From positions 308 to 64,307 of the forward strand of contig CAYXZV010000004.1 in assembly GCA_964469645.1 (NCBI GenBank): a stretch of DNA of 64,000 nucleotides. The letters are read 5' to 3'. The notes under the pieces are model-generated. The model made no database searches and had not been told where the DNA came from. It was given only the letters and a program-made list of their open reading frames with translations. Of the stretch, positions 5,133 through 24,117 are shown piece by piece. The number at the start of each line of letters is the position of its first letter. Within the stretch, counting starts at the first letter, position 1. Both the position numbers and the translations under genes were made by a program. Source of the stretch: an uncultured Methanosarcinales archaeon (GTDB lineage Archaea; Nanobdellota; Nanobdellia; Woesearchaeales; GW2011-AR4).

Positions 5133-5381
5133 ATGGTAATGTCTTTGATATATATGATTGACCCCACCGGGATCTATCAAATGAGTCGTATGAAGGAAAC
5201 ATTTGAAATGCTAGATCGAGAACCTACTGAAGCTGTTGAACTTTTTGCTAAGAGAAATGAACCAGGAGAAGGTCTAGTGGGTCAAATTATGAGTATGTTG
5301 GACCCTAAGCGATTTATAGATTATACTGCTGCTCAAACAATACTTCAGGAAAGGGAAAATGATCGTTTTCGCAGACCTTAG
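5133..5381 (+). CDS. Hypothetical small protein (ORFan, atypical codon use)
   Basis: ORF 5109..5381, with the first ATG at 5133. No recognisable domain. About 5 of 9 Arg codons are CGN by hand count. Confidence 0.35.
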   Translation: MVMSLIYMIDPTGIYQMSRMKETFEMLDREPTEAVELFAKRNEPGEGLVGQIMSMLDPKRFIDYTAAQTILQERENDRFRRP

Positions 5382-7222: not shown

Positions 7223-7717
7223 TTATTTGTTTTCAACAAAATCCATTAGAGAGTCCAGACTGTGATACTTTATTTCTCCGTTTTCCGGACTTATCTTTAT
7301 GTTTAGGGTCTTGAATGTATGCGTGACAAGAGTTATGTTCCATACGTTGCCATATTCCTTAAGGTTTTGCAGGATTATTATTGTTTTGTTTGCTAATTCT
7401 TTTGGGTATTTTTCTTTCTGAAAGTCTTCTGCTTTTTTTAATATTTCCTTTAGGGGTAGTTTTACGTTTTTTACGTCTATTGGATTTACCTCCATATCTG
7501 GTTTTTTGAATATCTCTTCTTCTTCGTTCATTTCAATTTCCTGGTGGATTGTGAATGTTGTCATCTTATCTGTTGTTTTATGATAAAAGCCAAGATTCCA
7601 GGAATCATCATCTGGCGTTTTTAGGGCGTAAGAGAAGAATGTTTCCGGATTCTTTTTCTTCCAGTCTTTAAACTGCATGCTCTCTTCTAATTTTTTCAAT
7701 GCCTGTTTTAATTCCAT
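7223..7717 (-). CDS. Hypothetical protein
   Basis: 164-aa ORF with host-like K/E/N-rich composition and no recognised motif. Confidence 0.5.
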   Translation of the reverse strand: MELKQALKKLEESMQFKDWKKKNPETFFSYALKTPDDDSWNLGFYHKTTDKMTTFTIHQEIEMNEEEEIFKKPDMEVNPIDVKNVKLPLKEILKKAEDFQKEKYPKELANKTIIILQNLKEYGNVWNITLVTHTFKTLNIKISPENGEIKYHSLDSLMDFVENK

Positions 7718-7769: not shown

Positions 7770-8741
7770 ATGGCGATTGCATTAAATGTTTTAGAGGAGC
7801 AGAAGGACCTTAAGGACAAGAAAAGGTTTAATGAGGGCTATAGGCTAGTGGGAAAACATTCTGCTGTTAAAGTATGCGCTTACTGCAAGAAAGCCATTAC
7901 CGGCAAGGATGTCTGCTACAAAAATACTTTTTATGGCATTGAATCATGGAGGTGTGTGCAGATGTCTCCTACATTCTTTTGTGACCATAGGTGTGTTTTC
8001 TGCTGGAGAGACATAGAATATGTGTGGCCAAAGTGGCAAGGTCCTGTTGATGATCCTAAAGATATTGTAGACGGATGCATAAAAGCGCATGTTGAGCTGT
8101 TGCAGGGCTTTAAAGGAAATTCTGAGGCTATAGCTGAAAAAGTAAAGGAGATGGGAAAGCCATTGCACTTTGCCATTAGTCTTACTGGTGAGCCTACAAT
8201 GTATCCTAAATTGCCGGAGATGATTGATTATATCAAGAGTAAGGGTATGACTGCTTTTTTGGTTACTAATGGTACAATACCAGATATGGTTGAGAAGTTA
8301 GTTGACCATCAGCCTACGCAGCTGTATATTTCCGTTTATGGTTGCAATAAGGAGATGCATCAGCGCACTGCAAATCCAATAACAAAGGATGCATGGGAGA
8401 AGTTGCAGAAAAGTTTGTCAATGATTAATAAGTTTGACAGGAATGTAATGAGGCTTACTTTAGTTAGGGGATTTAATTTCATGGATCCTAAAGGCTATGC
8501 TCAGTTGATTGATAAGTATAAACCAATGTTTGTTGAGGCTAAAGGATACAGTCATATTGGACACAGCCAAGAAAGGTTAGAAGTCCAAAATATGCCTTAT
8601 CATCATGAAATCCTGGAGTTTGCTAAGAAGATAGAAGAGAATTCTTCATATAAGGTAATTGATTCAAAAGAAGAAAGCAAGGTTGCTTTGCTTGCGAGAA
8701 AAGATTTTGATGGCCGTAAGATGGATTTCGAAGGGCTTTAG
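7770..8741 (+). CDS. taw1: tRNA 4-demethylwyosine synthase (radical SAM, Taw1/TYW1)
   Basis: Radical-SAM motif CDHRCVFCW, an N-terminal Cys cluster (CAYCKK...C) and the typical LTGEPTMYP are present. Confidence 0.8.
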   Translation: MAIALNVLEEQKDLKDKKRFNEGYRLVGKHSAVKVCAYCKKAITGKDVCYKNTFYGIESWRCVQMSPTFFCDHRCVFCWRDIEYVWPKWQGPVDDPKDIVDGCIKAHVELLQGFKGNSEAIAEKVKEMGKPLHFAISLTGEPTMYPKLPEMIDYIKSKGMTAFLVTNGTIPDMVEKLVDHQPTQLYISVYGCNKEMHQRTANPITKDAWEKLQKSLSMINKFDRNVMRLTLVRGFNFMDPKGYAQLIDKYKPMFVEAKGYSHIGHSQERLEVQNMPYHHEILEFAKKIEENSSYKVIDSKEESKVALLARKDFDGRKMDFEGL

Positions 8742-9340
8742 ATTTTTATAACCTTTCCATAAGGTCCTGGATTGAGGATATGTGTTTTCTTTATGTGGTC
8801 TTTTTTGTTGAAGTTTTCATGTAAGTGTCCGCATATGTATAAATCAATTTTATTTCTTGATACAAAATTCCTGAAAGTCTTGTTTCCGCAATGGCTTCCA
8901 ACTATAAGGTCAAGTTTTGTCTTATATGGTGGTGCATGCGTGATCAATATTATTCTCTTGTTCTTGTTTTTTCTTATTATCTTCTGGAACCTTTCTCCGG
9001 TTTTGTAGAAATCTGGCTCTATCAATGAGAAACCAGAGCCGCCGTAACCGAAAAAGAGGTGGTTATTATATTTGTAATATTTTTTGTGTATGAAAATAAG
9101 ATTTTTGTATCTTTGACATAATTTTTTCAGAACTTTATCTGTTTCATGGTTTCCATGAATCATTAATACTGTTTTGTTTAGCTTGTTTAGCTTCTTCAAT
9201 ATGAAATCCAGGCCCTGCTCAAAGATGGAAACATCTCCTGCGCATATTAATAAATCTGGTTTCTGTTTTTTTACCTTTTCTTTTATTTTTTTGAATGCAT
9301 ATGATGATAAGTGCAAGTCTGTGAATGCAAGAATTTTCAT
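8738..9340 (-). CDS. Metallophosphoesterase (calcineurin-like)
   Basis: FTDLHLS, GDVS, HGNHE and GHLHE motifs are present. Confidence 0.8.
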   Translation of the reverse strand: MKILAFTDLHLSSYAFKKIKEKVKKQKPDLLICAGDVSIFEQGLDFILKKLNKLNKTVLMIHGNHETDKVLKKLCQRYKNLIFIHKKYYKYNNHLFFGYGGSGFSLIEPDFYKTGERFQKIIRKNKNKRIILITHAPPYKTKLDLIVGSHCGNKTFRNFVSRNKIDLYICGHLHENFNKKDHIKKTHILNPGPYGKVIKI

Positions 9341-9472
9341 TTTTAAGTTTTAGTTTTCGGTTATATATAAATGTTTGTGTGATTACTAATTAATAGTGAA
9401 ATATGGAAAGGTTTATAAAGTAGTTTTTAGTGCTACATCTTATTATTAAAACAAAGTTTATGGTGGTTTGAA

Positions 9473-10954
9473 TTGACACAGGAGGATTTAGTAGAACGTG
9501 TAATGGAATTATTTAGTAGTTATAGTCCTCCTGAAGAAGGAGATAAATTAACAAACCATTTAGCTCATACTGGACTCTTAAATATCTACCTTAGTCTTAT
9601 TCAACATAATATGCAGGGTACATTTACCCCACATGAGTATCTTCCTGATGAATTCAAGCCTTTTCTTGAGGGTTTATCTGTTGGTTCATTAACGAGGGAA
9701 GAGCTAGTTAGTAACACTCTTGCACATATTACTGCAAGAGAAGATTTTGTAAGAAGGGCCAAGCGAGAGCCGGACTGGTTTAAAGCGGCTATCCAAAAAC
9801 TTCTTGGATATGAAATGGATCCTTTTAAAGACCCTGAAACAGGTATTTCGAGGGAAGATATGTCCTATGAAGAGAGACTTCATACAGAAGTTACTGCTCA
9901 GGTTGCTTCTGAGATTATGCCTGATTTGTGGAGAGATGTTTCTATTAGATTTGCAGAAAGAGGAGAAAAAGGGAAGTATCTTATTGGTTTCGGATCTTCT
10001 TGGCAGGCCATCTTCAAGAGATTAAAGGAAGCCCCAGATAATCCAGAGGCGTTTAAAAAAGCACAAGTTAACTGGAGAAACCTGGGATTTCATGCTTTAA
10101 GCTTTTTTGATTTACAATCATTGGATAGGCTCGTTCAGGATGGTGATGTTTTTGGTGATACAACTATAGTAGGGGGTTATCCCCGGATAGCAGATGCAGA
10201 TGTACATGCATATCAGCTTTTAAGATTTGGTTATGACACCGCTGAGCCACGCCGTAATCCGATTCTACATCAATTTCCTTTAATTAGAGATGGATCCAGA
10301 AAACAAAAATTATACAGGGAAGGTCAAAGCATTGCTTCAATAACCATTGTTGATCACTTTGATCCCCTTAAAGGGCTAGAATATGTTGTACGGCATGTAG
10401 ATGGTACAATAGCTGTTGGGAAAGTATTTTTGCGAGAAGAAGATTGGCGCTTTATAATTACTCATTCTAACCAAGCAAGGTATATGATTGAAAATCCTGG
10501 ATCTACTGGTGATCCCATTTTAGGTCTTGCATTGCTTGTATCTGCTATGGGTAGGGATATGATGGTCTATAATCGTAGAGAGCGTGCTTACAGAGTTGAG
10601 CGTGGAATGCAAAAACCTTCAGAGGGTAGAAGTCCAGAACCTGTTGAAATATTGTTACCATTGACAATGTATAATTATAATATTGATCCAAGTAAAGCTT
10701 CTACAGAACATCTTAGGTTAGGGGGCATAGTTAGAGAGGTAGGACCACATTATAGGAGCCCACATAAGGTGCTATTGCCAGATGGTCAAGAGCCTTCTCA
10801 AGAAGCACTTGCACGTGCTGTAAAAGAAAGGTATCCTTTGCCTCCTGGTAATTATACATATAGAAAGGGTCATGGAGTTGTGGGTGGAGATGAAAATATG
10901 GTACAACAGTTTAGAAGCCGTTCTGCTATGGCCTATCTCTTTAGTGCAAGGTAA
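9473..10954 (+). CDS. 493-aa ORFan, non-host composition and codon usage
   Basis: TTG start with ggtgg 7 nt upstream, and TATA-like tttataaa at 9412-9419. No recognised domain. Poor in K/I/N and rich in R/P/G/H. About one third of Arg codons are CGN. Confidence 0.6.
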   Translation: MTQEDLVERVMELFSSYSPPEEGDKLTNHLAHTGLLNIYLSLIQHNMQGTFTPHEYLPDEFKPFLEGLSVGSLTREELVSNTLAHITAREDFVRRAKREPDWFKAAIQKLLGYEMDPFKDPETGISREDMSYEERLHTEVTAQVASEIMPDLWRDVSIRFAERGEKGKYLIGFGSSWQAIFKRLKEAPDNPEAFKKAQVNWRNLGFHALSFFDLQSLDRLVQDGDVFGDTTIVGGYPRIADADVHAYQLLRFGYDTAEPRRNPILHQFPLIRDGSRKQKLYREGQSIASITIVDHFDPLKGLEYVVRHVDGTIAVGKVFLREEDWRFIITHSNQARYMIENPGSTGDPILGLALLVSAMGRDMMVYNRRERAYRVERGMQKPSEGRSPEPVEILLPLTMYNYNIDPSKASTEHLRLGGIVREVGPHYRSPHKVLLPDGQEPSQEALARAVKERYPLPPGNYTYRKGHGVVGGDENMVQQFRSRSAMAYLFSAR

Positions 10955-10958
10955 AAAC

Positions 10959-12185
10959 CTAAACAGAATAATAATCTTCTAACACAACTTTATCAACATT
11001 CTCAATGTTTTTAACGATGTATAGTTTACCCTGTCCTAGTTCTGTTATTTTCTCTGCTAATTTCTTTCCTTTTTCATTTAGGTTGATTCCAACCAAAGAA
11101 ATGGTTATTCCTTTGTTTCTTGCCATGGAAACTTCCTGCAAGGTTTCTTTTTCAGGCTCTTTTCCCGTGGTTGGCAAGGCATCTGTGATTAATATCAAAT
11201 GTTTTGTTATATCGTTGTTTGGAAACAATTCTATTGATTTTTTTAATGAAGCTGCCAGATCAGTCTCTCTGGATGCTTTTGCTGACGCAATGCTTTTCAA
11301 CAGATAAGAAAAGTCCTGTGTAGGCTCGACAATTGTTTTTATATCAGAACCAAATACAATCAAACCTACTTTATCTTTTTCGTCAATTGCTTTGTAAGCC
11401 AATGCTATCCCAGCACGTTTACAAGCGTCTATCTTAGCACCTTTCATAGAACCGGATGCATCGAGAGCGTAAACAATATAACTCTGGCCTTTTGATTGAC
11501 GTTCAAAAACTTTAAGGTCTTTTTCCTGTAGTTTTTTATGACCTCTTCTGATAGCAAGCTTAGCTGATTTTTTTATTGCTATGTCCCTATATCTATCACT
11601 TTTCTTGTAAGTCCTGACATCCTCTTTTCCCCCATAAATTGAAGCACGCTTATGTATTTTTTCTCCAATAATTCCTTTTGGTATCAGTTTATCAAGCTCT
11701 TCAAAATACATAACTAGAGAAGCTAATTCAATGCCCTTGTCGGTTATCTCATCATTTTTTCCCAATAATCCTTCTTCTTTTAATTTCTCTATGTTCTTTT
11801 GGATCCTGAATTTTAACTCTTTTTGAAACTCTGGAATGTTTATGTTTTTCTTAAGGTAATCTGGATTGTAGCCAGTAGCTAATTTCAGTAAAGAAGGTCC
11901 GTAGATATGCTGGGCCATAGAGTAATTTTTTACCAATTGCTGGTAGATTAAGTCAGGTGTAAAAGAATCTAAGCCTTGATTTATTGAATCCTGGATTAAT
12001 TTTCCTTTGTCAATAGTTTCCTTGTCGTTTTCCAGGACAGAATGCATTAGTTTTCTCTCTTCTTGAGAAGAAAGTTTTCCAGTCAGCTCTTCAGCTTCCT
12101 CTTTTTCATGTATCTGCTGTTGGCTGTCAAAGTAAATCACCTTTTTTATCTTCCAGAACATCACTATCAACAATATTCTTTTCAA
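10959..12185 (-). CDS. von Willebrand factor A (vWA) domain protein, partner of MoxR-type ATPase; start uncertain (12185, 12161 or later)
   Basis: MIDAS motif YALDASGSM, with LITDALPT further on. It overlaps the 3' end of the upstream ATPase gene. Confidence 0.75.
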   Translation of the reverse strand: MKRILLIVMFWKIKKVIYFDSQQQIHEKEEAEELTGKLSSQEERKLMHSVLENDKETIDKGKLIQDSINQGLDSFTPDLIYQQLVKNYSMAQHIYGPSLLKLATGYNPDYLKKNINIPEFQKELKFRIQKNIEKLKEEGLLGKNDEITDKGIELASLVMYFEELDKLIPKGIIGEKIHKRASIYGGKEDVRTYKKSDRYRDIAIKKSAKLAIRRGHKKLQEKDLKVFERQSKGQSYIVYALDASGSMKGAKIDACKRAGIALAYKAIDEKDKVGLIVFGSDIKTIVEPTQDFSYLLKSIASAKASRETDLAASLKKSIELFPNNDITKHLILITDALPTTGKEPEKETLQEVSMARNKGITISLVGINLNEKGKKLAEKITELGQGKLYIVKNIENVDKVVLEDYYSV

Positions 12186-13126: not shown

Positions 13127-13714
13127 CTAAATAAATACACTAATAGAACTCATAATAATGGCGGCAACTATCGGTATCAGCAGATTATCATCTACCTTAA
13201 AGCCTTTTATCTCAAAGTCAATGCCTTCAATCAACATTGAAATCAATGAAGCAATTAATGCATATAGCCAAGGCACAAAAAGTAATGCCCCAAAAAATCC
13301 GGCAATTGCTCCTGCCATCACACCTTCAAAAAATTTTTCATTGTGGAAAGGATGTTTTAAGTATCCATATGGGCCTATAAGCCTTGAGATGGAATCACCT
13401 AATGCAAGAATCATGATGGATGCCATGGCTATCTCTTTTGGAAAAATCAAGACCACTATAAAAGCGCCAATGACATAGAACACTGCCCCTTTTCCAGGAA
13501 AGCTTTCCAGGTCTTTTTTCCTGTCAAAAACCTGCAGGAAATTATGGATTACAGGGATTTTGAATTTTCTGCTTAGGAAAGATAAGATTAATCCTGCAAT
13601 AGATAGGACAAACAATGTTGTTGCATTGATTAGGTTAAAGTAAAGTAAAACCACTATTATTATTCCAAGAAGTGCGTGGATTAGCTGCCTTTTTATCTCC
13701 AGTTTAGTTAACAT
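13127..13714 (-). CDS. Polytopic membrane protein, dolichol/polyprenol kinase (CTP-transferase 1) family
   Basis: Six or more TM helices. KRQLIHAL and LGDSISRLIG are present. Paralog of 30459-31052. Confidence 0.5.
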   Translation of the reverse strand: MLTKLEIKRQLIHALLGIIIVVLLYFNLINATTLFVLSIAGLILSFLSRKFKIPVIHNFLQVFDRKKDLESFPGKGAVFYVIGAFIVVLIFPKEIAMASIMILALGDSISRLIGPYGYLKHPFHNEKFFEGVMAGAIAGFFGALLFVPWLYALIASLISMLIEGIDFEIKGFKVDDNLLIPIVAAIIMSSISVFI

Positions 13715-18073: not shown

Positions 18074-18496
18074 ATGTCAACTAAATATGGGGCATTGGGT
18101 GCTACAGTAAAAGGAGAGACGGATAGGGTTGGCTTTACTCTAACATTCTTATCAAGACAACTGGCTGAGGCTATGGATTTCGTTTCTAGTGGGAGTCGAA
18201 ATGTTTCTGCTGGATTTAATCAATATTTTCGCAATGTTGAATCTGGTTACATATATGGGAAACCAAATCCTCCCAGAAATTCAAAAAAAGATTTGGAAAG
18301 GTTAGCTATTCTTCTGCATGCGCTTAATTTTTCAGAAAGACATCCTGAAATAATTGAGGGGGTTAGAGAACTTGATGACAGGTTTGAATATCCTCCTCCG
18401 GAAGATGATAGGGTACCATATACTCAACTTATGGAGGCATATGAAGCAGAGAATGGTGGTAGTGTACCTGAAGAATCCTTGGATGCTAGGGTTTGA
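18074..18496 (+). CDS. 140-aa ORFan, non-host composition
   Basis: TATA-like tttttaaat lies about 25 nt upstream of the ATG, suggesting a leaderless transcript. No recognised domain. Acidic, P/G/R-rich C-terminus. Confidence 0.5.
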   Translation: MSTKYGALGATVKGETDRVGFTLTFLSRQLAEAMDFVSSGSRNVSAGFNQYFRNVESGYIYGKPNPPRNSKKDLERLAILLHALNFSERHPEIIEGVRELDDRFEYPPPEDDRVPYTQLMEAYEAENGGSVPEESLDARV

Positions 18497-18507: not shown

Positions 18508-19449
18508 TCAATACTCAAACAAAAAACTCTTTATTTTTCTTGAGAATTCTCTAGATGCGTAAAATATTCTTTCTACTGAGTATGTTGAGATGAATGCTGA
18601 AAATAAGATTAAAATTCCGCCTATCAGAGTGTTTAGGGAAGGACTTTCATGAAGTATTAAGAAAGACAAAAATATTGTTAATATAGGTCCTAGCAGCAAT
18701 ATCATGCTGAAAGTTGAGGATTTTACATATTTTATTGCGTAAAGCTGCAAAGTGAAAGGTATTAGAGTAAATACTGTAGCTAATAAGATCAATAAAGATA
18801 TATTAACAACAGTAAAAGAAGCAAATTCAATATTCTGGCCAAAAAATGGAATTACAGCTAAAAGTATTAAAGTATTGAATATGAAAAGCCAATTGGTTTT
18901 TTTGAAGTGGTTTATGGATTGGGATGATTTTCTGTTTATTATCACATAAAAAGAAAATAGTATTGCTGAGGTTAAAGCCATAAGCTGCCCTTTATAGTTT
19001 TGGAGTTCCAACTGGTTGGAAAACATGATTAAAAGGCCTATAAAACTTATTACCGTAACTATCATATCTGTTCTTGAAATATGTTCTTTAAGCAATATCC
19101 TGGCCAGAATTAAAGTAAAGATCGGAAAAGTCAGGAATAAGAAGGAAGCTGTGGTTACACCTATGTAATGCAGAGATTGGAAAAAAAGGAACATATTTGT
19201 CATCAGAACAGATGACAACAATAAAAGATATTTCAGCTCTTCCTTGTTTATTGAATATAGCTCTTTCAGATCAATTTTTTTTATTATCTTAATTATGTAA
19301 GGGTATGTTACAGCTACGAATGCGAACCGAAATAACAGGATATAATTTAGAGGAATGGTCTCTATTAGGTTTTTTATCAAAATCGGTGGAAAACTAAATA
19401 GAATAGCAACTATGTAAACTAACATTATTGGAGAGTTTAATCTTGACAT
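18508..19449 (-). CDS. EamA/DMT-superfamily transporter
   Basis: 10 TM helices and a duplicated EamA-like architecture. Confidence 0.7.
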   Translation of the reverse strand: MSRLNSPIMLVYIVAILFSFPPILIKNLIETIPLNYILLFRFAFVAVTYPYIIKIIKKIDLKELYSINKEELKYLLLLSSVLMTNMFLFFQSLHYIGVTTASFLFLTFPIFTLILARILLKEHISRTDMIVTVISFIGLLIMFSNQLELQNYKGQLMALTSAILFSFYVIINRKSSQSINHFKKTNWLFIFNTLILLAVIPFFGQNIEFASFTVVNISLLILLATVFTLIPFTLQLYAIKYVKSSTFSMILLLGPILTIFLSFLILHESPSLNTLIGGILILFSAFISTYSVERIFYASREFSRKIKSFLFEY

Positions 19450-19565
19450 AAGGGATTTTTATTTCTTAGTGGGTTTAAAAATGTGATGGTTTGGGAAATA
19501 ACTAAAAGGGAACGTTTATAAATTTATTACGGTTTCTTTGAAAAAATATTTAGTTGGGGATTGAT

Positions 19566-20351
19566 ATGGCAGTTGCACTTGACGATCTTACTGATGAATA
19601 TTTTGAAAAGGCAATAGCTAGAGAAGAAATTCTGTTTGACAAGCAAACAGGTTTACCGATTATTGAGTATACTTCTGTTTTGGAGCATCCTCCAATTCAA
19701 GTTACAGAAAGAGGAGATATTGCAAAGATTCTTGGAGTAATGGATGCCCCCTCACTTTATAGTAATCTTGAGAAGATTGGTTGGGTTCTTGATGAAAATA
19801 GACATACAACAACTGAACGGTTAGAACTCTATATTTATTATAGAGCTAAAGTAAATAAAATAGAACCGGAAAAACGTAAATCACAATTGAAAGAAAGTTT
19901 ACAGAGACTTCATGAGTATGAGCGTTCACACCATCCAGAACCAGGAGGTGTTGTAATTCCACTAGTTATTGGAGATGGAAAAGATGGAGAGAATACAGAT
20001 TCTGCTCGACAACATCCACCTTCAGAAAGAATAACTGTGAGTGAAGAAATACAACAAGCACCCCCTGTAAAAACTCCATCTACTAGAAGTAGATATGTTT
20101 TTGATGGGGCTTATGGTCCTGGTGAAGGGGCTCGTATTAGGGAACAGTTTCCTGGTAATGAACTTGCTTTAAGATTTGGGGCAGAGTTTGGACCTGGCAA
20201 AGAAATCGGCCATAAAGATCTGGAGGAACGTTTGCCTAGAAAGTTCGGAGTTTCTCCCGATAAAGTATATGAGCTTGCTGGGTGGTTTTTTGATAAGAGA
20301 CTTATAGTTCCTACAGAGAATGGAACATATGTTTGGAAACCTCTGCGTTAA
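19566..20351 (+). CDS. 261-aa ORFan, non-host composition and codon usage; possible C-terminal winged-helix
   Basis: ATG at 19566 is preceded by ggggat, with tttataaa at 19515-19522. The central region is disordered and P/G/H-rich. About 7 of 18 Arg codons are CGN. Confidence 0.55.
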   Translation: MAVALDDLTDEYFEKAIAREEILFDKQTGLPIIEYTSVLEHPPIQVTERGDIAKILGVMDAPSLYSNLEKIGWVLDENRHTTTERLELYIYYRAKVNKIEPEKRKSQLKESLQRLHEYERSHHPEPGGVVIPLVIGDGKDGENTDSARQHPPSERITVSEEIQQAPPVKTPSTRSRYVFDGAYGPGEGARIREQFPGNELALRFGAEFGPGKEIGHKDLEERLPRKFGVSPDKVYELAGWFFDKRLIVPTENGTYVWKPLR

Positions 20352-20383: not shown

Positions 20384-22852
20384 TCACTCCTTCAAAATCT
20401 TAGCCACACTAACTAACTTATCATTCTCATGCAATTTAATCAATCTTACTCCTTGTGTTGCACGCCCTATGACACTGATCTGAGAAACAGACATTCTTAT
20501 TGTAATTCCGTTCTTTGATATCAGCATTATTTGGTTTTCATCGCTAACGGAATTTATTGAAACAACTTTACCATTCCTTTCCGAGCAGATTATATTCCTT
20601 ACTCCGGAACCTCCGCGGCTGATTAATCTGTATTCTTCCACTTTTGTCCTTTTTCCATAGCCGTTTTCAGTTACAGTCAATAATGTTTTTTTATTTGTTG
20701 CTACAACCATACCTATGACAGAATCATCTGCTGAAAGCCTAATTCCTCTAACACCTTGAGATGAACGACCTGTAGGACGAACATCATTCTCATTAAACCT
20801 TACTGCAATTCCATTTCTTGTGGCTAGAATGATTTCCTTATTTCCATCAGTAAGCTTTACATTGATCAAACGGTCATCAGGATCTAAAGTTATTGCTACT
20901 ATTCCACCTTTTCTTGGATTGGAATAAGCAGCAAGGCTTGTCTTCTTTATGGTCCCTTTTTTTGTTGCCATGATTAAATATTGAGTATCATCAAATGCCT
21001 TTACTGGAACATAAGCAGTTACTTTTTCATCTGACTGTAAACTAGCCAGATTAACAATGGCTTTACCACGAGCTTGTCTGGAAGCCTCAGGTATATCATA
21101 GACCTTTACCCAATGCACTTTTCCTTTATTCGTAAATAAAAGGATATAAGAATGTGTAGATGCAATGAAAATGTCCTTAACGAAATCCTCTTCTTTTGTT
21201 GTTGTTGCTATTAATCCTTTGCCGCCGCGTCTTTGCTGCCTGTAAGTTTGTAACAACTGGCGTTTGATGTAACCGGAATGAGTTATTGTAATGACACAGT
21301 TGCTTTCCTCTATTACATCTTCCATTTCAAAGCTTGTCGCTTCTGTATCTAAGATCTCTGTCTTTCGGTCATCTCCATAATTTTGTTTTAATTCTAGAAG
21401 TTCCTGCTTGATTATGTCAAGGATCTTTTGTGGTGATTGTAAAATAGCCTTTAACTCTGCTATTAATTTTAATAAATCCTGGTGCTCTTTCTTGACTTTT
21501 TCCTGTTCTAAAGAAGTTAAACGCTGCAAGCGCATTTCTAGGATAGCAACACTTTGCTCTTCTGAAAGGCTAAAATTAGATATTAAGCTTGTTTTGGCGT
21601 CCTCTACTGAACGGCTCTCTTTAACAAGTTTTATGGTCTTGTCAAGATTATTTAATGCTATGATCAATCCCTCAAGGATATGGGCTCTTTTCTGCGCTTT
21701 ATTCAAATCGAACAATGTCCTTTTCCTTACAACATCTTTACGATGGTCAATGTAATACTGGATCAGCTGGCTTAAATTCAATAGTTTTGGAACATTGTTG
21801 ACCAAAGCGACCATTATTATTCCAAATGTAACTTGTAAACGGGAATGGGCATAAAGCTGGTTCAACAGAACATCTGCATTGGCATCTTTTCTCAGCTCAA
21901 TTACAATTCTTATTCCCTGTCTGTCTGATTCATCCCTTATGTCTGATATGCCATTGATTTTCTTGTCCCTAACCATGTCAGCTATTTGAGTTATTGTTTC
22001 TGCTTTGTTTACCATGTAAGGTATTTCTGTGACTATGATTTTTTTCCTGTCTTTTACTTCTTCAATTTTTGTTTTTGCTCGGACAATAACTTTTCCTCGG
22101 CCGGTCTTGTAAGCTGATTTTATTCCGCTTCTGCCGCAGATTGTCGCTCCTGTCGGGAAATCTGGACCTTTGATGCCCTGCATCAATTCTTCTATTGTAA
22201 TGGCTGGATTGTCAATCTGCTTTATTACACCATCAATAATCTCAGGCATATTATGCGGAGGGATATTTGTGGCCATTCCTACTGCAATTCCTGATGAACC
22301 GTTAACCAGAAGATTTGGAACTTTTGATGGCAAAACAGAAGGTTCTTTTGATGTGTTATCGAAATTTGGAACAAACTTTACTGTCTTTTTTTCTATGTCC
22401 TGCATCATCTCTTCTGAAAGTTTTGTCAATCTAGCTTCAGTATAACGCATGGCAGCAGGATTATCGCCATCTACAGAACCGAAATTACCCTGGCCATCAA
22501 CTAAAAGGTATCTCATGGAGAAGTTTTGAGCCAGCCTAACTAAAGTATCGTAGATAGAAGCGTCACCGTGGGGGTGGTATTTTGCCATACAATTCCCGAC
22601 TACATTTGCGGATTTCCTGAATGGCTTATTATGCAATAATCCGGCTTCCAGCATGGTGTATAAAACACGCCTATGCACTGGTTTTAGACCATCTCTTACA
22701 TCCGGCAAAGCTCTTCCAACAATAACAGACATAGAATAATCTAGGTAAGACTGCTTCATCTCATCTTCTATAACACGTTGAATTACAGTAGTTCCAGAGC
22801 CTGTATTTTGCTCTTTTTCTGGGCTGTTTTTTTCGTCTGTTTTTTCATCCAT
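20384..22852 (-). CDS. gyrA: DNA gyrase subunit A
   Basis: Motifs DGLKPVHRR, AMRYTE (catalytic Tyr) and HPHGD are present, plus C-terminal beta-pinwheel repeats. Confidence 0.95.
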   Translation of the reverse strand: MDEKTDEKNSPEKEQNTGSGTTVIQRVIEDEMKQSYLDYSMSVIVGRALPDVRDGLKPVHRRVLYTMLEAGLLHNKPFRKSANVVGNCMAKYHPHGDASIYDTLVRLAQNFSMRYLLVDGQGNFGSVDGDNPAAMRYTEARLTKLSEEMMQDIEKKTVKFVPNFDNTSKEPSVLPSKVPNLLVNGSSGIAVGMATNIPPHNMPEIIDGVIKQIDNPAITIEELMQGIKGPDFPTGATICGRSGIKSAYKTGRGKVIVRAKTKIEEVKDRKKIIVTEIPYMVNKAETITQIADMVRDKKINGISDIRDESDRQGIRIVIELRKDANADVLLNQLYAHSRLQVTFGIIMVALVNNVPKLLNLSQLIQYYIDHRKDVVRKRTLFDLNKAQKRAHILEGLIIALNNLDKTIKLVKESRSVEDAKTSLISNFSLSEEQSVAILEMRLQRLTSLEQEKVKKEHQDLLKLIAELKAILQSPQKILDIIKQELLELKQNYGDDRKTEILDTEATSFEMEDVIEESNCVITITHSGYIKRQLLQTYRQQRRGGKGLIATTTKEEDFVKDIFIASTHSYILLFTNKGKVHWVKVYDIPEASRQARGKAIVNLASLQSDEKVTAYVPVKAFDDTQYLIMATKKGTIKKTSLAAYSNPRKGGIVAITLDPDDRLINVKLTDGNKEIILATRNGIAVRFNENDVRPTGRSSQGVRGIRLSADDSVIGMVVATNKKTLLTVTENGYGKRTKVEEYRLISRGGSGVRNIICSERNGKVVSINSVSDENQIMLISKNGITIRMSVSQISVIGRATQGVRLIKLHENDKLVSVAKILKE

Positions 22853-23014: not shown

Positions 23015-23155
23015 TTAGAGTTTTTGAATGATATTTGAACGGATAGAATAGGACTTGCCACAATAAACGCAGGATTTTCTATTTTTTTCTGTTATTGGTT
23101 TTAGAGTCTGGTATTTCATCTTATGATTGCACTTTGGACATTGTAAAAGAAACAT
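23015..23155 (-). CDS. 46-aa C4 zinc-ribbon micro-protein, translationally coupled to scpB
   Basis: Hand translation gives MFLLQCPKCNHKMKYQTLKPITEKNRKSCVYCGKSYSIRSNIIQKL. Its ATG overlaps the scpB TGA (TGATG). It is below the ORF-track size cutoff. Confidence 0.5.
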   Translation of the reverse strand: MFLLQCPKCNHKMKYQTLKPITEKNRKSCVYCGKSYSIRSNIIQKL

Positions 23156-24117
23156 CATTTTTCTTCTTTCTCTTTGGATTCCTTTTTATCTTCTTGCTCT
23201 TTTTCAGGATGTAGGATCTTTTCTGCTTTCTCTTCTGCAATTTTCTCTTGTTCTTTGCTTAGCTTGATTCCAGGGCTTTCGGATTCCGGTTTTTCTTCTT
23301 TCTCTTTGGATTCCTTTTTATCTTCTTCTTTTATCTCTTGCAGTTTCTTCCTGTCTTTCTCTAATTGTTCTTCAGAAGGTTCATCAACTACATCCAAATC
23401 TCCAAGTTTTTCTTCTACAACTTCTGTTTTTGGAGATTCTTCTTTTTCCTCTTGATTTTGCTTTTCTAAATCCAATGGATTACCTTCCTCATCCAGTAAA
23501 TCTGCAGTTTTCTTTATCTCCTCATCCTTCCGTTTCTCTTCTTCAGCGCGTGCTTTCTGTTCTTCCTTGATCTGTTTGATTTCTGTCTCTTTTTCTTCAA
23601 TTGCTTTTGATATGCTTCCAAAATCCCTGAAAACCTCTTTCATTTTTTCCTGAGGAAGGTTAAAGTATTCAAAAAATTTGTCTGTAAGCTTGATCAGATT
23701 TGTACGGCCGTGCTTCTGCCGGGTTATATAGCCCATGGCTTCCAATTCTTTCAGATGATCGTAAGCTTTATTTGTCCTTATCTTAATCAGATCAGATTGC
23801 TTTATCGGATACTTAAAGGCTATAACGGCCAAAGTCTCAACTATTGTCTTGCTCAGTTCTGTCTCTGTCACTATTTTTTGCACTAAAGGCAAGAACGGCT
23901 CGCGAACAGTTAACTTCCATGAATCACCTTCATTAGCAATCATTACACTTGAGCCTTTGTCGTCATACTCTGTTTTCAGCTCGACAAGAGTGTTTTTTAT
24001 GTCGTCAGTTTTTGCGTTAGATAATCTGGAAAGTTCAATAAGGTCCATCTTTCTTCCGGAAGAAAAAAGCAATGCCTCTAGTTTACTTTTAAGAGTATTT
24101 ATCTCTTTTGTTTCCAT
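23155..24117 (-). CDS. scpB: Segregation and condensation protein B with long Lys/Glu-rich C-terminal extension
   Basis: LEALLFSSGRKMDLIELSRL and tandem winged helices are present. The tail contains an exact 38-nt direct repeat (23158-23195 and 23290-23327). Confidence 0.75.
   Translation of the reverse strand: METKEINTLKSKLEALLFSSGRKMDLIELSRLSNAKTDDIKNTLVELKTEYDDKGSSVMIANEGDSWKLTVREPFLPLVQKIVTETELSKTIVETLAVIAFKYPIKQSDLIKIRTNKAYDHLKELEAMGYITRQKHGRTNLIKLTDKFFEYFNLPQEKMKEVFRDFGSISKAIEEKETEIKQIKEEQKARAEEEKRKDEEIKKTADLLDEEGNPLDLEKQNQEEKEESPKTEVVEEKLGDLDVVDEPSEEQLEKDRKKLQEIKEEDKKESKEKEEKPESESPGIKLSKEQEKIAEEKAEKILHPEKEQEDKKESKEKEEK

What the first reader, a model, noticed from the sequence alone, without database searches (positions are those of the whole stretch)
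9473..10954. 493-aa ORFan with foreign-looking composition and arginine codon usage wedged between housekeeping genes
The protein is poor in Lys/Ile/Asn and rich in Arg/Pro/Gly/His/Asp, unlike its neighbours. Local GC is visibly higher (a 60-nt sample was 27/60 G+C). By hand count about 13 of about 40 Arg codons are CGN. In contrast, the Arg codons at the start of rpl3 are all AGA/AGG, and secY shows only isolated CGC/CGG. It has its own TATA-like box (tttataaa, 9412-9419) and a ggtgg SD, so it looks expressed. I recognise no domain. Three other + strand singletons share the signature (5133-5381, 18074-18496, 19566-20351). Together they look like a dispersed set of recently acquired genes or genes unique to this lineage, which in an episymbiotic DPANN-type genome are candidates for host-interaction functions.
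Basis: partly seen in the sequence, partly recalled or inferred. Interest (0 to 1): 0.62.

Follow-up and report, generated by a model that had tools for sequence, protein, structure and literature searches.

The report
Nuclease-less relative of Mrr-fused proteins
The 493-codon gene is not a foreign orphan. It is an inherited, fast-evolving protein of DPANN archaea, and two thirds of it is an undescribed module that bacteria fuse to restriction-type nucleases.

Summary
The "foreign" reading fails. The extra G+C lies only in codon positions 1 and 2 (0.54 and 0.40), and GC3 is low (0.25). Overall synonymous usage is typical for the window (z +0.12). The gyrase A homologue (DNA_topoisoIV/DNA_gyraseA_C in the syntenic loci) uses more CGN (38%).

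It is not an ORFan. Orthologues at 43-71% identity occur in Woesearchaeota, Nanoarchaeota and Aenigmarchaeota MAGs. Three related genomes (four fetched loci) keep the same slot (metallophosphoesterase | gene | VWA | MoxR), the same promoter core and the same SD. All orthologues share the odd amino-acid composition, so it is a family trait.

There is no match in Pfam, NCBIfam, PHROGs, PADLOC, PDB sequences or Foldseek. Residues 195-493 are homologous (hhalign 99.9%, E 1.5e-36) to the central module of about 750-aa bacterial "restriction endonucleases". There the module sits just before an Mrr_cat nuclease domain, or follows an N-terminal NucS_C domain, in variable islands. The archaeal protein has no nuclease domain.

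It is the fastest-diverging gene of its syntenic block. My best reading is a nuclease-less nucleic-acid-recognition protein derived from a conflict-type system, but its biochemistry is unknown.

The parts
9365..9420 (.). Core of the bidirectional promoter between the metallophosphoesterase gene (-) and the 493-aa gene (+). It holds 'tatatataaa' (a TATA box for the - strand gene) and 'gaaagg tttataaa' (BRE-like plus TATA, 9406-9419) for the + strand gene.
   Evidence: About 55 nt are nearly invariant in four genomes, although the encoded 493-aa proteins are only 43-71% identical. The TATA box lies 47-61 nt upstream of the start in all four. That it is an archaeal promoter is inferred; no transcript data exist.
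9462..9466 (+). Shine-Dalgarno-like GGTGG, 6 nt before the TTG start
   Evidence: 'TGGTGGTTT' is invariant in the window, L004, L006 and L007, while the leader before it varies.
9473..10954 (+). Coding sequence, 493 aa, with a TTG start
   Evidence: Open frame. The orthologues begin at the aligned position with TTG (L007, L004), ATG (L006) or GTG (L001). There are 67 invariant columns among 10 sequences at 43-71% identity.
9473..10054 (+). N-terminal domain, residues 1-194: all-alpha and acidic (pI 5.0). It is specific to the archaeal proteins and is the most divergent part.
   Evidence: AF2 pLDDT is 80-90 over residues 1-160, all helices. pI. It is 33% identical to P0009 where the C-terminus is 57% identical. 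It lies outside the hhalign match to the bacterial family.
10055..10951 (+). Conserved module of about 300 aa, residues 195-493, shared with bacterial Mrr_cat- and NucS_C-fused proteins
   Evidence: hhalign of A3 against A4: probability 99.94%, E 1.5e-36; archaeal residues 195-493 align with bacterial residues 365-641. There is no recurrent Pfam family in 57 members and no PDB sequence hit.
10319..10507 (+). Beta-rich sub-domain, residues 283-345: four antiparallel strands followed by a helix
   Evidence: AF2 with a 57-sequence alignment gives pLDDT 77-95 here. Foldseek gave only weak hits to beta-sheet-plus-helix folds (NTF2-like, Pur-alpha; probability at most 0.38).
10508..10951 (+). Basic C-terminal sub-domain, residues 346-493 (pI 9.6), carrying the family motifs. 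The window versions are GRDMMVYNRRER, LLPLT..YNYN, PHYRSPHKVLLP, PSQEALARA, PPGNYTYRKGH and FRSRSAMAYLF.
   Evidence: Family consensus: RDFwVvEeRE ... YLPR ... pHxVsgHlRr ... PSxxQLxLA ... vPxGyTFVRPHeRG ... YRSRSAL. D362 and T462 are invariant, and R361, P396, H431, G459, S482 and S484 nearly so, over 57 diverse members. Residues 432-462 have pLDDT 97-98. pI.

Best explanation
The gene encodes a cytoplasmic protein that has been inherited vertically within DPANN archaea. It has two parts. The first is a lineage-specific, acidic, all-helical N-terminal domain (residues 1-194). The second is a module of about 300 aa (residues 195-493) that no searched domain library describes.

In bacteria, homologues of this module sit directly in front of an Mrr-type PD-(D/E)XK nuclease domain. 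More rarely they follow an N-terminal NucS-type nuclease domain. These bacterial proteins are single genes in variable, mobile-element-rich islands.

From this I infer that the module is the nucleic-acid-recognising or sensing core of a nuclease-based conflict (restriction or defence type) protein family. I infer further that the archaeal proteins are nuclease-less derivatives that keep the recognition core. They would then bind DNA or RNA without cutting it, or act through the N-terminal domain or a partner supplied in trans.

The unusual composition (Arg/His/Pro/Gln-rich, Lys/Ile/Asn-poor, hence high GC1 and GC2) is a conserved property of the protein family. It is not a trace of foreign DNA.

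Shown: the gene is real, it has orthologues, synteny is conserved, the composition is a family trait, the module is homologous to the bacterial one, the nuclease fusions exist, and the gene diverges fast. Inferred: nucleic-acid binding, the defence ancestry, and the absence of catalysis.
For: - The ORF has orthologues at 43-71% identity with 67 invariant columns.
- The slot Metallophos(-) | gene(+) | VWA(-) | MoxR(-) is kept in L004/L005, L006 and L007. The promoter core and SD are conserved.
- In each of six genomes the orthologue shows lower K+I+N and, in five of six, clearly higher GC1/GC2 and R+P+G+H+D than its own neighbours (L014 differs little). GC3 tracks or falls below the host in five of six (L004 is slightly above).
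- Synonymous codon usage is typical for the window.
- The exhaustive profile search found 217 hits. Of the best 158, 71 carry the module directly followed by Mrr_cat, 56 carry the module without it, and 31 are the full archaeal type. NucS_C lies at the N-terminus of P0065 and P0129.
- hhalign gives 99.94% probability over about 270 columns.
- The bacterial members lie next to an integrase, an IS110 transposase, RES, a helicase-PLD protein and XRE genes. The archaeal clade-2 members L016 and L017 lie among ParE/MazE, PIN/RHH, NYN and Pol-beta NTase genes.
- The C-terminal sub-domain is basic (pI 9.6). Many relatives carry a Lys/Arg-rich loop between RDxxV and LPR (sequences).
- The gene is 71/59/43% identical to its orthologues where its neighbours are 72-89% identical.
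Against: - There is no direct evidence of nucleic-acid binding. Foldseek against PDB and BFVD found no significant match for either model, so the fold gives no functional anchor.
- The universally conserved polar residues (R361, D362, H431, T462, S482, S484) could equally mark a catalytic site.
- The bacterial fusion proteins are themselves uncharacterised. PADLOC recognises only their Mrr part, so the 'defence' label is inferred from context alone.
- In the window's own clade the gene sits among housekeeping genes, not in an island.
- No transcript data exist. The two metatranscriptomes from a sample that holds this DNA contain nothing from this organism.
Confidence: 0.45

Rival explanations
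1. One reading: the gene was recently acquired by horizontal transfer, from a donor richer in G+C or from a mobile element or virus.
For: G+C is higher (0.395 against 0.358) and the CGN fraction is higher (32% against 15%, p = 0.0045). Homologues of the larger part of the protein exist in bacteria, so an ancient transfer between domains is possible.
Against: - GC3 is below the window mean and synonymous usage is typical (z +0.12).
- Housekeeping genes show equal or higher CGN fractions.
- The signature recurs in orthologues from genomes of 32-49% G+C.
- Synteny and promoter are conserved across genomes whose copies differ by up to 57%.
- There are no flanking repeats, tRNA or integrase, and no relative in viral contigs.
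- In the module tree the archaeal forms make their own deep clades, separate from the Mrr-fused clade.
Confidence: 0.04
2. The module is an enzyme, not a binding domain. It could be a hydrolase or transferase that uses the invariant D362, H431 and S482/S484, with R361 and T462. The archaeal protein would then be a stand-alone enzyme, and the bacterial proteins would be two-enzyme fusions.
For: A small set of polar residues is invariant or nearly so across all clades. S484 lies at the start of a predicted helix directly after a strand. That geometry is known from nucleophile elbows; this is my own recall, not a test. The archaeal clade has many further invariant polar residues.
Against: No known catalytic family or fold matches. 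hhalign of the module against Mrr_cat gives only 15% probability. Fusion to interchangeable nuclease effectors at either end is more typical of a sensing or targeting core.
Confidence: 0.2
3. The protein is a client, adaptor or regulator of the neighbouring MoxR AAA+ / VWA pair.
For: The gene abuts the VWA gene, with the two stop codons 4 nt apart, in the window and in L004-L007. Substrates of MoxR-VWA pairs are mostly unknown (general knowledge).
Against: The genes converge, so they are not one operon. More distant members (L001, L014, L015, L016, L017) have no MoxR or VWA gene nearby. The adjacency is part of a 12-gene block conserved as a whole. VWA and MoxR are 82-88% identical where this gene is 43-71% identical, so the two do not co-vary.
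Confidence: 0.08
4. The conserved frame is real, but the protein is under relaxed constraint and has no important function, being a decaying remnant of a defence gene.
For: It is the fastest-evolving gene in its block, it has lost the nuclease part, and there is no expression evidence.
Against: The full-length open frame is kept in every orthologue found, in AT-rich genomes where stop codons arise easily. There are 67 invariant columns. The promoter and SD are conserved. The sequence is identical in two independent marine metagenomes. Reduced DPANN genomes seldom keep 1.5 kb of useless sequence (general knowledge).
Confidence: 0.08

Closest known systems
Uncharacterised bacterial proteins of about 700-800 aa annotated 'restriction endonuclease', with a C-terminal Mrr_cat domain (PF04471). 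Examples are P0228 from Azospirillum thiophilum, P0231 from Ralstonia soli and P0209 from Nevskia sp.
   Same: They share a homologous module of about 280 aa with the same motifs: RDxxV, LPR, HxVxxHxR, PSxxQ, GxTFV and (Y/F)RSRSA. hhalign gives 99.94% probability.
   Different: The bacterial proteins add a C-terminal Mrr_cat nuclease domain and an unrelated N-terminal region of about 360 aa, and they lie in variable islands. The window protein ends with the module, has its own 194-aa helical N-domain, and sits in a conserved housekeeping neighbourhood.
Mrr-type (type IV) restriction endonucleases, which combine a recognition domain with Mrr_cat
   Same: The relatives have the same two-part logic: a non-catalytic part joined to a PD-(D/E)XK Mrr_cat effector. 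The comparison with Mrr itself rests on general knowledge of type IV enzymes.
   Different: The window protein has no Mrr_cat domain. Its module is not the winged-helix Mrr N-domain, since Pfam gives no hit. Nothing shows dependence on DNA modification.
Conserved lineage-specific hypothetical protein families of archaea and DPANN (Meheust et al. 2022, PMC9258230; Castelle et al. 2021, PMC8204110)
   Same: It is a family without functional annotation, restricted to one archaeal group, and encoded in small genomes dominated by hypothetical proteins.
   Different: Here the larger part of the protein can be linked by profile comparison to a bacterial nuclease-fused family. That gives a testable lead. 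I did not check whether those papers list this family.

Membership tests
Mrr-like restriction endonuclease (Pfam Mrr_cat, PF04471) | A PD-(D/E)XK catalytic domain detectable with the Mrr_cat profile | tested here: not met
   P0001 has no Pfam hit even at E = 1. An HMM built from the Mrr_cat domains of the relatives finds nothing in any ORF of the window. hhalign of the module against Mrr_cat gives 15% probability.
Undescribed module family (archaeal residues 195-493 = bacterial residues 365-641) | A profile-profile match over the whole module | tested here: met
   hhalign of A3 against A4: probability 99.94%, E 1.5e-36, 268 aligned columns. hmmsearch of the module profile against the window ORF gives E 1.4e-48.
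Undescribed module family (archaeal residues 195-493 = bacterial residues 365-641) | The signature residues R-D at the end of the long helix, LP(R), the second His of HxVxxHxR, GxT(F/Y)V and SxSA | tested here: met
   R361, D362, P396, H431, G459, T462, S482 and S484 are present in P0001 and are invariant or at least 90% conserved in 57 members.
Undescribed module family (archaeal residues 195-493 = bacterial residues 365-641) | A fused PD-(D/E)XK nuclease, either Mrr_cat at the C-terminus or NucS_C at the N-terminus | tested here: not met
   This holds for 71 of the 158 best hits plus at least 2 NucS_C fusions. It is absent in P0001 and in all 38 archaeal-type members. So it is not a universal feature of the family, but it does mark a sub-type to which the window protein does not belong.
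Recently transferred (genomic-island) gene | Atypical silent-site composition or synonymous codon usage | tested here: not met
   GC3 is 0.249, below the window mean. The synonymous-usage z score is +0.12, rank 40 of 65.
Recently transferred (genomic-island) gene | Absence from the syntenic site in relatives, and mobility marks such as a tRNA, an integrase or flanking repeats | tested here: not met
   The gene is present at the same site in L004/L005, L006 and L007. There are only chance-level repeats and no tRNA within about 20 kb.
Known anti-phage defence systems (PADLOC-DB v2) | A match to a defence-protein model | tested here: not met
   P0001 has no PADLOC hit. The bacterial relatives hit only through their Mrr_cat part: PDC-S02, ZorD, mREase_IV.
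Partner of a MoxR-VWA system | Consistent co-occurrence or an operon with MoxR and VWA across the family | tested here: not met
   Adjacency holds only in the close syntenic clade and the orientation is convergent. It is absent in L001, L014, L015, L016 and L017.

The most novel reading that the evidence does not exclude
The module of about 280 aa is a new kind of nucleic-acid sensor or new catalytic core. Bacteria use it as the front end of single-protein, nuclease-armed immunity. DPANN archaea have domesticated it without the nuclease. The resulting protein is fast-evolving and its variable N-terminal domain adapts to a changing partner, such as viral or host DNA or proteins. That would make it a conflict or host-interaction factor of an episymbiont.
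Probability: 0.2. Interest if true: 0.6.

Novelty: new variant of a known kind. Interest (0 to 1): 0.38.

Why it matters
As a case of gene transfer the finding is ordinary. It is a useful warning that high GC1/GC2 with low GC3 reflects protein composition, not foreign DNA.

What remains is modestly interesting. A protein module absent from every searched library (Pfam, NCBIfam, PHROGs, PADLOC, PDB) links a conserved hypothetical family of DPANN archaea to bacterial proteins that carry interchangeable PD-(D/E)XK nucleases.

That gives a concrete, testable lead for one of the many unknown proteins that dominate DPANN genomes. It also points to a candidate bacterial single-gene nuclease system that has not been characterised.

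The gene's unusually fast divergence inside an otherwise conserved block fits a role in genetic conflict, but this is not shown.

Tried and rejected
I used the window's 65 ORFs instead.
- P0001 has no hit in Pfam, PHROGs, NCBIfam or PADLOC.
- The PDB sequence search with profiles A1 and A2 found nothing.
- The AF2 full-length model (pLDDT 65.7) gave no Foldseek PDB match.
- The AF2 model of residues 283-493 with a 57-sequence alignment (pLDDT 80.1) gave no significant match. Foldseek PDB had a best E of 0.13 (NTF2-like, Pur-alpha). BFVD had a best E of 0.016, to a 75-aa uncharacterised phage protein.
- A Pfam scan of all 57 module sequences at E up to 5 found no recurrent family.
- I considered the module as a degenerate copy of the Mrr_cat fold. 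hhalign gives 15% probability, so I rejected it as unsupported.
- I considered an AbrB-like swapped hairpin, a His-Me finger and tyrosine-recombinase motifs from memory. None has tool support. The would-be Tyr is Phe in the window protein, so I dropped all three.
- The second word-index search with the 38-sequence alignment added no new members.
- The GTDB contig scan found only 2 loci, because the pattern method has low sensitivity.
- The viral contig scan found none.
- The two metatranscriptomes hold nothing from this organism.
- Rfam found nothing in 8500-11500. The sigma-70 and terminator scan is uninformative for an archaeon.
Full report
**1. The observation**

The frame 9473-10954 (+) is open for 493 codons from a TTG.
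- There are 41 Arg codons, 13 of them CGN.
- K+I+N is 0.122 and R+P+G+H+D is 0.310, both near the extremes of the window's ORFs.
- 'tttataaa' is at 9412-9419 and 'ggtgg' at 9462-9466.

The CGN share (32%) is higher than in the other 64 ORFs (14.7%; binomial p = 0.0045).

The DNA is not 'foreign-looking' once codon positions are separated. GC1 is 0.544, the second highest in the window after orf19554, and GC2 is 0.396. GC3 is 0.249, below the window mean of 0.33 +/- 0.05. The likelihood of its synonymous codon choices under the window's usage is typical (z = +0.12, rank 40 of 65).

Housekeeping genes have as much CGN or more. The gene at 20384-22852 has 38%; its counterparts in the syntenic loci carry the gyrase/topoisomerase A families DNA_topoisoIV and DNA_gyraseA_C. 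The gene at 23155-24117 has 50%.

As a group their GC3 is lower than that of the rest (p = 0.003).

The whole genome could not be loaded. These statistics therefore rest on one 64-kb window.

**2. It is not an ORFan**

The word-index search found ten proteins at 43-71% identity. Two are named by their sources as hypothetical proteins of Woesearchaeota and Nanoarchaeota MAGs. Their alignment has 67 invariant columns.

The exhaustive profile search over 1.84 billion representatives gave 217 hits: 44 below 1e-10 and 14 below 1e-30. Further members are named Aenigmarchaeota, Woesearchaeota or 'archaeon'.

In three related genomes (four fetched loci: L004/L005 carry the same gene, L006, L007) the gene lies in the same slot as in the window. 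The order is wyosine radical-SAM enzyme, metallophosphoesterase (-), the gene (+), VWA (-), MoxR (-), and onward to the CCA-adding enzyme.

The intergenic region in front of it has a core of about 55 nt that is almost invariant in all four genomes. This core includes 'gaaaggtttataaa' 47-61 nt before the start. 'TGGTGGTTT' just before the start codon is invariant too, while the leader between them varies. The start codon is TTG in the window, L007 and L004, ATG in L006 and GTG in L001.

More distant members sit in other contexts.
- L001: between a GINS gene and ribosomal protein genes.
- L014: next to SHMT in a 791-kb contig.
- L015: next to a NYN gene.

**3. The composition is a family trait**

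In each of six genomes (locus G+C from 32 to 49%) the orthologue has lower K+I+N than its own neighbours. In five of the six it also has clearly higher GC1, GC2 and R+P+G+H+D; in L014 the difference is small. GC3 follows or falls below the local value in five of six, and is slightly above it in L004. The signature therefore reflects what the protein must be made of, not where the DNA came from.

No mobility marks flank the gene. Repeats are at chance level, and the only tRNA of the window is 20 kb away. A scan of viral contigs found no relative. The same sequence, without a single difference, occurs in contigs of two independent marine metagenomes.

**4. What the protein is**

No library recognises it. 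That covers Pfam, PHROGs, NCBIfam, PADLOC and the PDB sequences.

The profile search showed that most hits match only the C-terminal part. Of the 158 best hits:
- 31 are full-length relatives of the archaeal type;
- 71 have the module directly followed by about 115 residues that Pfam calls Mrr_cat;
- 56 have the module without Mrr_cat.

Two of the last group (P0065, P0129) start with a NucS_C nuclease domain.

A profile-profile comparison of 38 archaeal-type proteins with 30 bacterial Mrr_cat fusions gives 99.94% probability and E 1.5e-36 over 268 columns. Archaeal residues 195-493 correspond to bacterial residues 365-641.

The shared motifs are RDFwVvEeRE, YLPR, pHxVsgHlRr, PSxxQLxLA, vPxGyTFVRPHeRG and YRSRSAL. 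D362 and T462 are invariant, and R361, P396, H431, G459, S482 and S484 nearly so, across 57 diverse members.

The window protein thus consists of two parts. The first is an acidic all-helical N-domain (residues 1-194, pI 5.0). The second is this module, whose last 148 residues are basic (pI 9.6). It has no nuclease domain, and no Mrr_cat is encoded anywhere in the window.

**5. Structure**

The full-length model has pLDDT 65.7. The N-terminal part is confident and the C-terminus poor. Re-modelling residues 283-493 with a 57-sequence alignment raised pLDDT to 80.1. That model shows a four-stranded sheet plus helix, a long helix ending in R-D, and a small mixed alpha/beta C-terminal part.

Foldseek found no significant match for either model in the PDB, nor for the second model in BFVD. 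The module is also not a detectable copy of the Mrr_cat fold (hhalign 15%). The fold therefore gives no functional anchor.

**6. Context of the relatives**

The bacterial fusion proteins are annotated only as 'restriction endonuclease' or 'hypothetical' (Azospirillum thiophilum, Ralstonia soli, Nevskia, Kofleriaceae). They lie in variable regions.
- L011: RES and DUF5677 genes, a NYN/OST-HTH gene and an IS110 transposase.
- L012: a helicase-PLD protein and XRE regulators.
- L013: a phage-type integrase and a family-A polymerase.

In a tree of the module the Mrr-fused forms make one clade (75 leaves, support 0.91). The nuclease-less archaeal forms make two deep clades of their own.

Members of the second archaeal clade lie among toxin-antitoxin genes, NYN and Pol-beta nucleotidyltransferase genes (L016, L017). 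One lies downstream of HTH and HATPase_c_3 genes (L014).

**7. Rate of evolution**

Within the conserved block the 493-aa gene is 71%, 59% and 43% identical to its orthologues in L007, L006 and L004. The well-conserved neighbours are much closer: Tyw1 78-89%, metallophosphoesterase 72-79%, VWA 82-88%, MoxR 84-87% and the CCA enzyme 73-82%. Only two other unannotated genes come near its divergence: 7223-7717 at about 60% and 13127-13714 at 47-49%.

The N-domain diverges most. Against P0009 it is 33% identical where the C-terminal sub-domain is 57% identical. Fast, uneven divergence in a fixed position is what conflict-related genes show, but it also fits weak constraint.

**8. Explanation**

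Best reading, confidence about 0.45 for the functional part. The module is the recognition or sensing core of a family whose bacterial members are armed with interchangeable PD-(D/E)XK nucleases. The DPANN proteins are nuclease-less derivatives that bind nucleic acid or act through their own N-domain or a partner.

Three observations support this reading:
- the effector-swapping architecture;
- the island contexts;
- the basic C-terminal part with Lys/Arg-rich loops in many relatives.

It is an inference, not a demonstration. That the gene is real, old, vertically inherited and not foreign I hold at about 0.9.

Rivals:
- an enzyme using D362, H431 and S482/S484 (0.2);
- a MoxR-VWA client (0.08);
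- a weakly constrained remnant (0.08);
- recent transfer (0.04).

**9. Verdict**

The numbers of the observation are right, but the 'foreign ORFan' reading is wrong. The gene belongs to an uncharacterised, DPANN-restricted family whose larger part is a module not described in Pfam, NCBIfam, PHROGs, PADLOC or the PDB. That module is shared with bacterial nuclease fusions.

General context for such lineage-specific hypothetical families in archaea is given in PMC9258230. I did not check whether that work lists this family.

Interest is moderate to low. There is a new, testable domain lead, but no demonstrated new mechanism.

Noticed in passing
window 18074-18496; L019 782-1159: orf18074 has a syntenic counterpart in metagenome contig L019. 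It is only 35% identical, while the flanking Na+/H+ exchanger and gyrase A homologue are 83% and 87% identical. It is a very fast-evolving small gene at a fixed position.
   Followed up: partly
window 18508-20351: In L019 only about 1 kb separates the orf18074 counterpart from the gyrase A homologue. This stretch of about 1.8 kb seems to vary between close relatives. No relative of orf19554 was found in metagenome contigs.
   Followed up: partly
window 9365-9420: About 55 nt of the intergenic region between the metallophosphoesterase gene and the 493-aa gene are almost invariant in four genomes. That is more conserved than either flanking protein. Between the two TATA boxes lies 'tgtgattactaattaatagtgaa', with a TAATTA centre, which could be a regulator site.
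   Followed up: partly
window 7223-7717 (-) and 13127-13714 (-): Two further proteins without any Pfam, PHROG or NCBIfam match (164 and 195 aa) are conserved in the same syntenic block, at about 60% and 47-49% identity. They too are lineage-restricted unknowns.
   Followed up: no
L011 10723-11496; L015 8474-9034; L017 8723-9316: NYN-domain (RNase-type) genes lie next to or near members of the module family in one bacterial and two archaeal loci. This may be chance in TA-rich regions, or a recurrent partner.
   Followed up: no
L014 3257-8416: In a 791-kb archaeal contig the family member is the last of five same-strand, closely spaced genes. The others are an HTH_26-like gene, a HATPase_c_3 (MORC-type ATPase) gene and two unknowns. 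The layout looks like a defence-type operon.
   Followed up: no
L016 2806-5830 and L017 3-3445: Both clade-2 archaeal loci have a divergently transcribed pair of large unannotated genes (632+374 aa and 492+654 aa) just upstream of the family member, together with ParE/MazE or PIN/RHH pairs.
   Followed up: no
window 10952-10961: The stop codons of the convergent 493-aa and VWA genes are 4 nt apart. In L007 the two genes overlap by 4 nt. There is no room for terminators between them.
   Followed up: no
window 20384-22852 and 23155-24117: The gyrase A homologue (19 of 50) and the gene at 23155-24117 (5 of 10) have the highest CGN shares among Arg codons in the window. CGN use here is gene-specific and not a marker of foreign genes.
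   Followed up: yes
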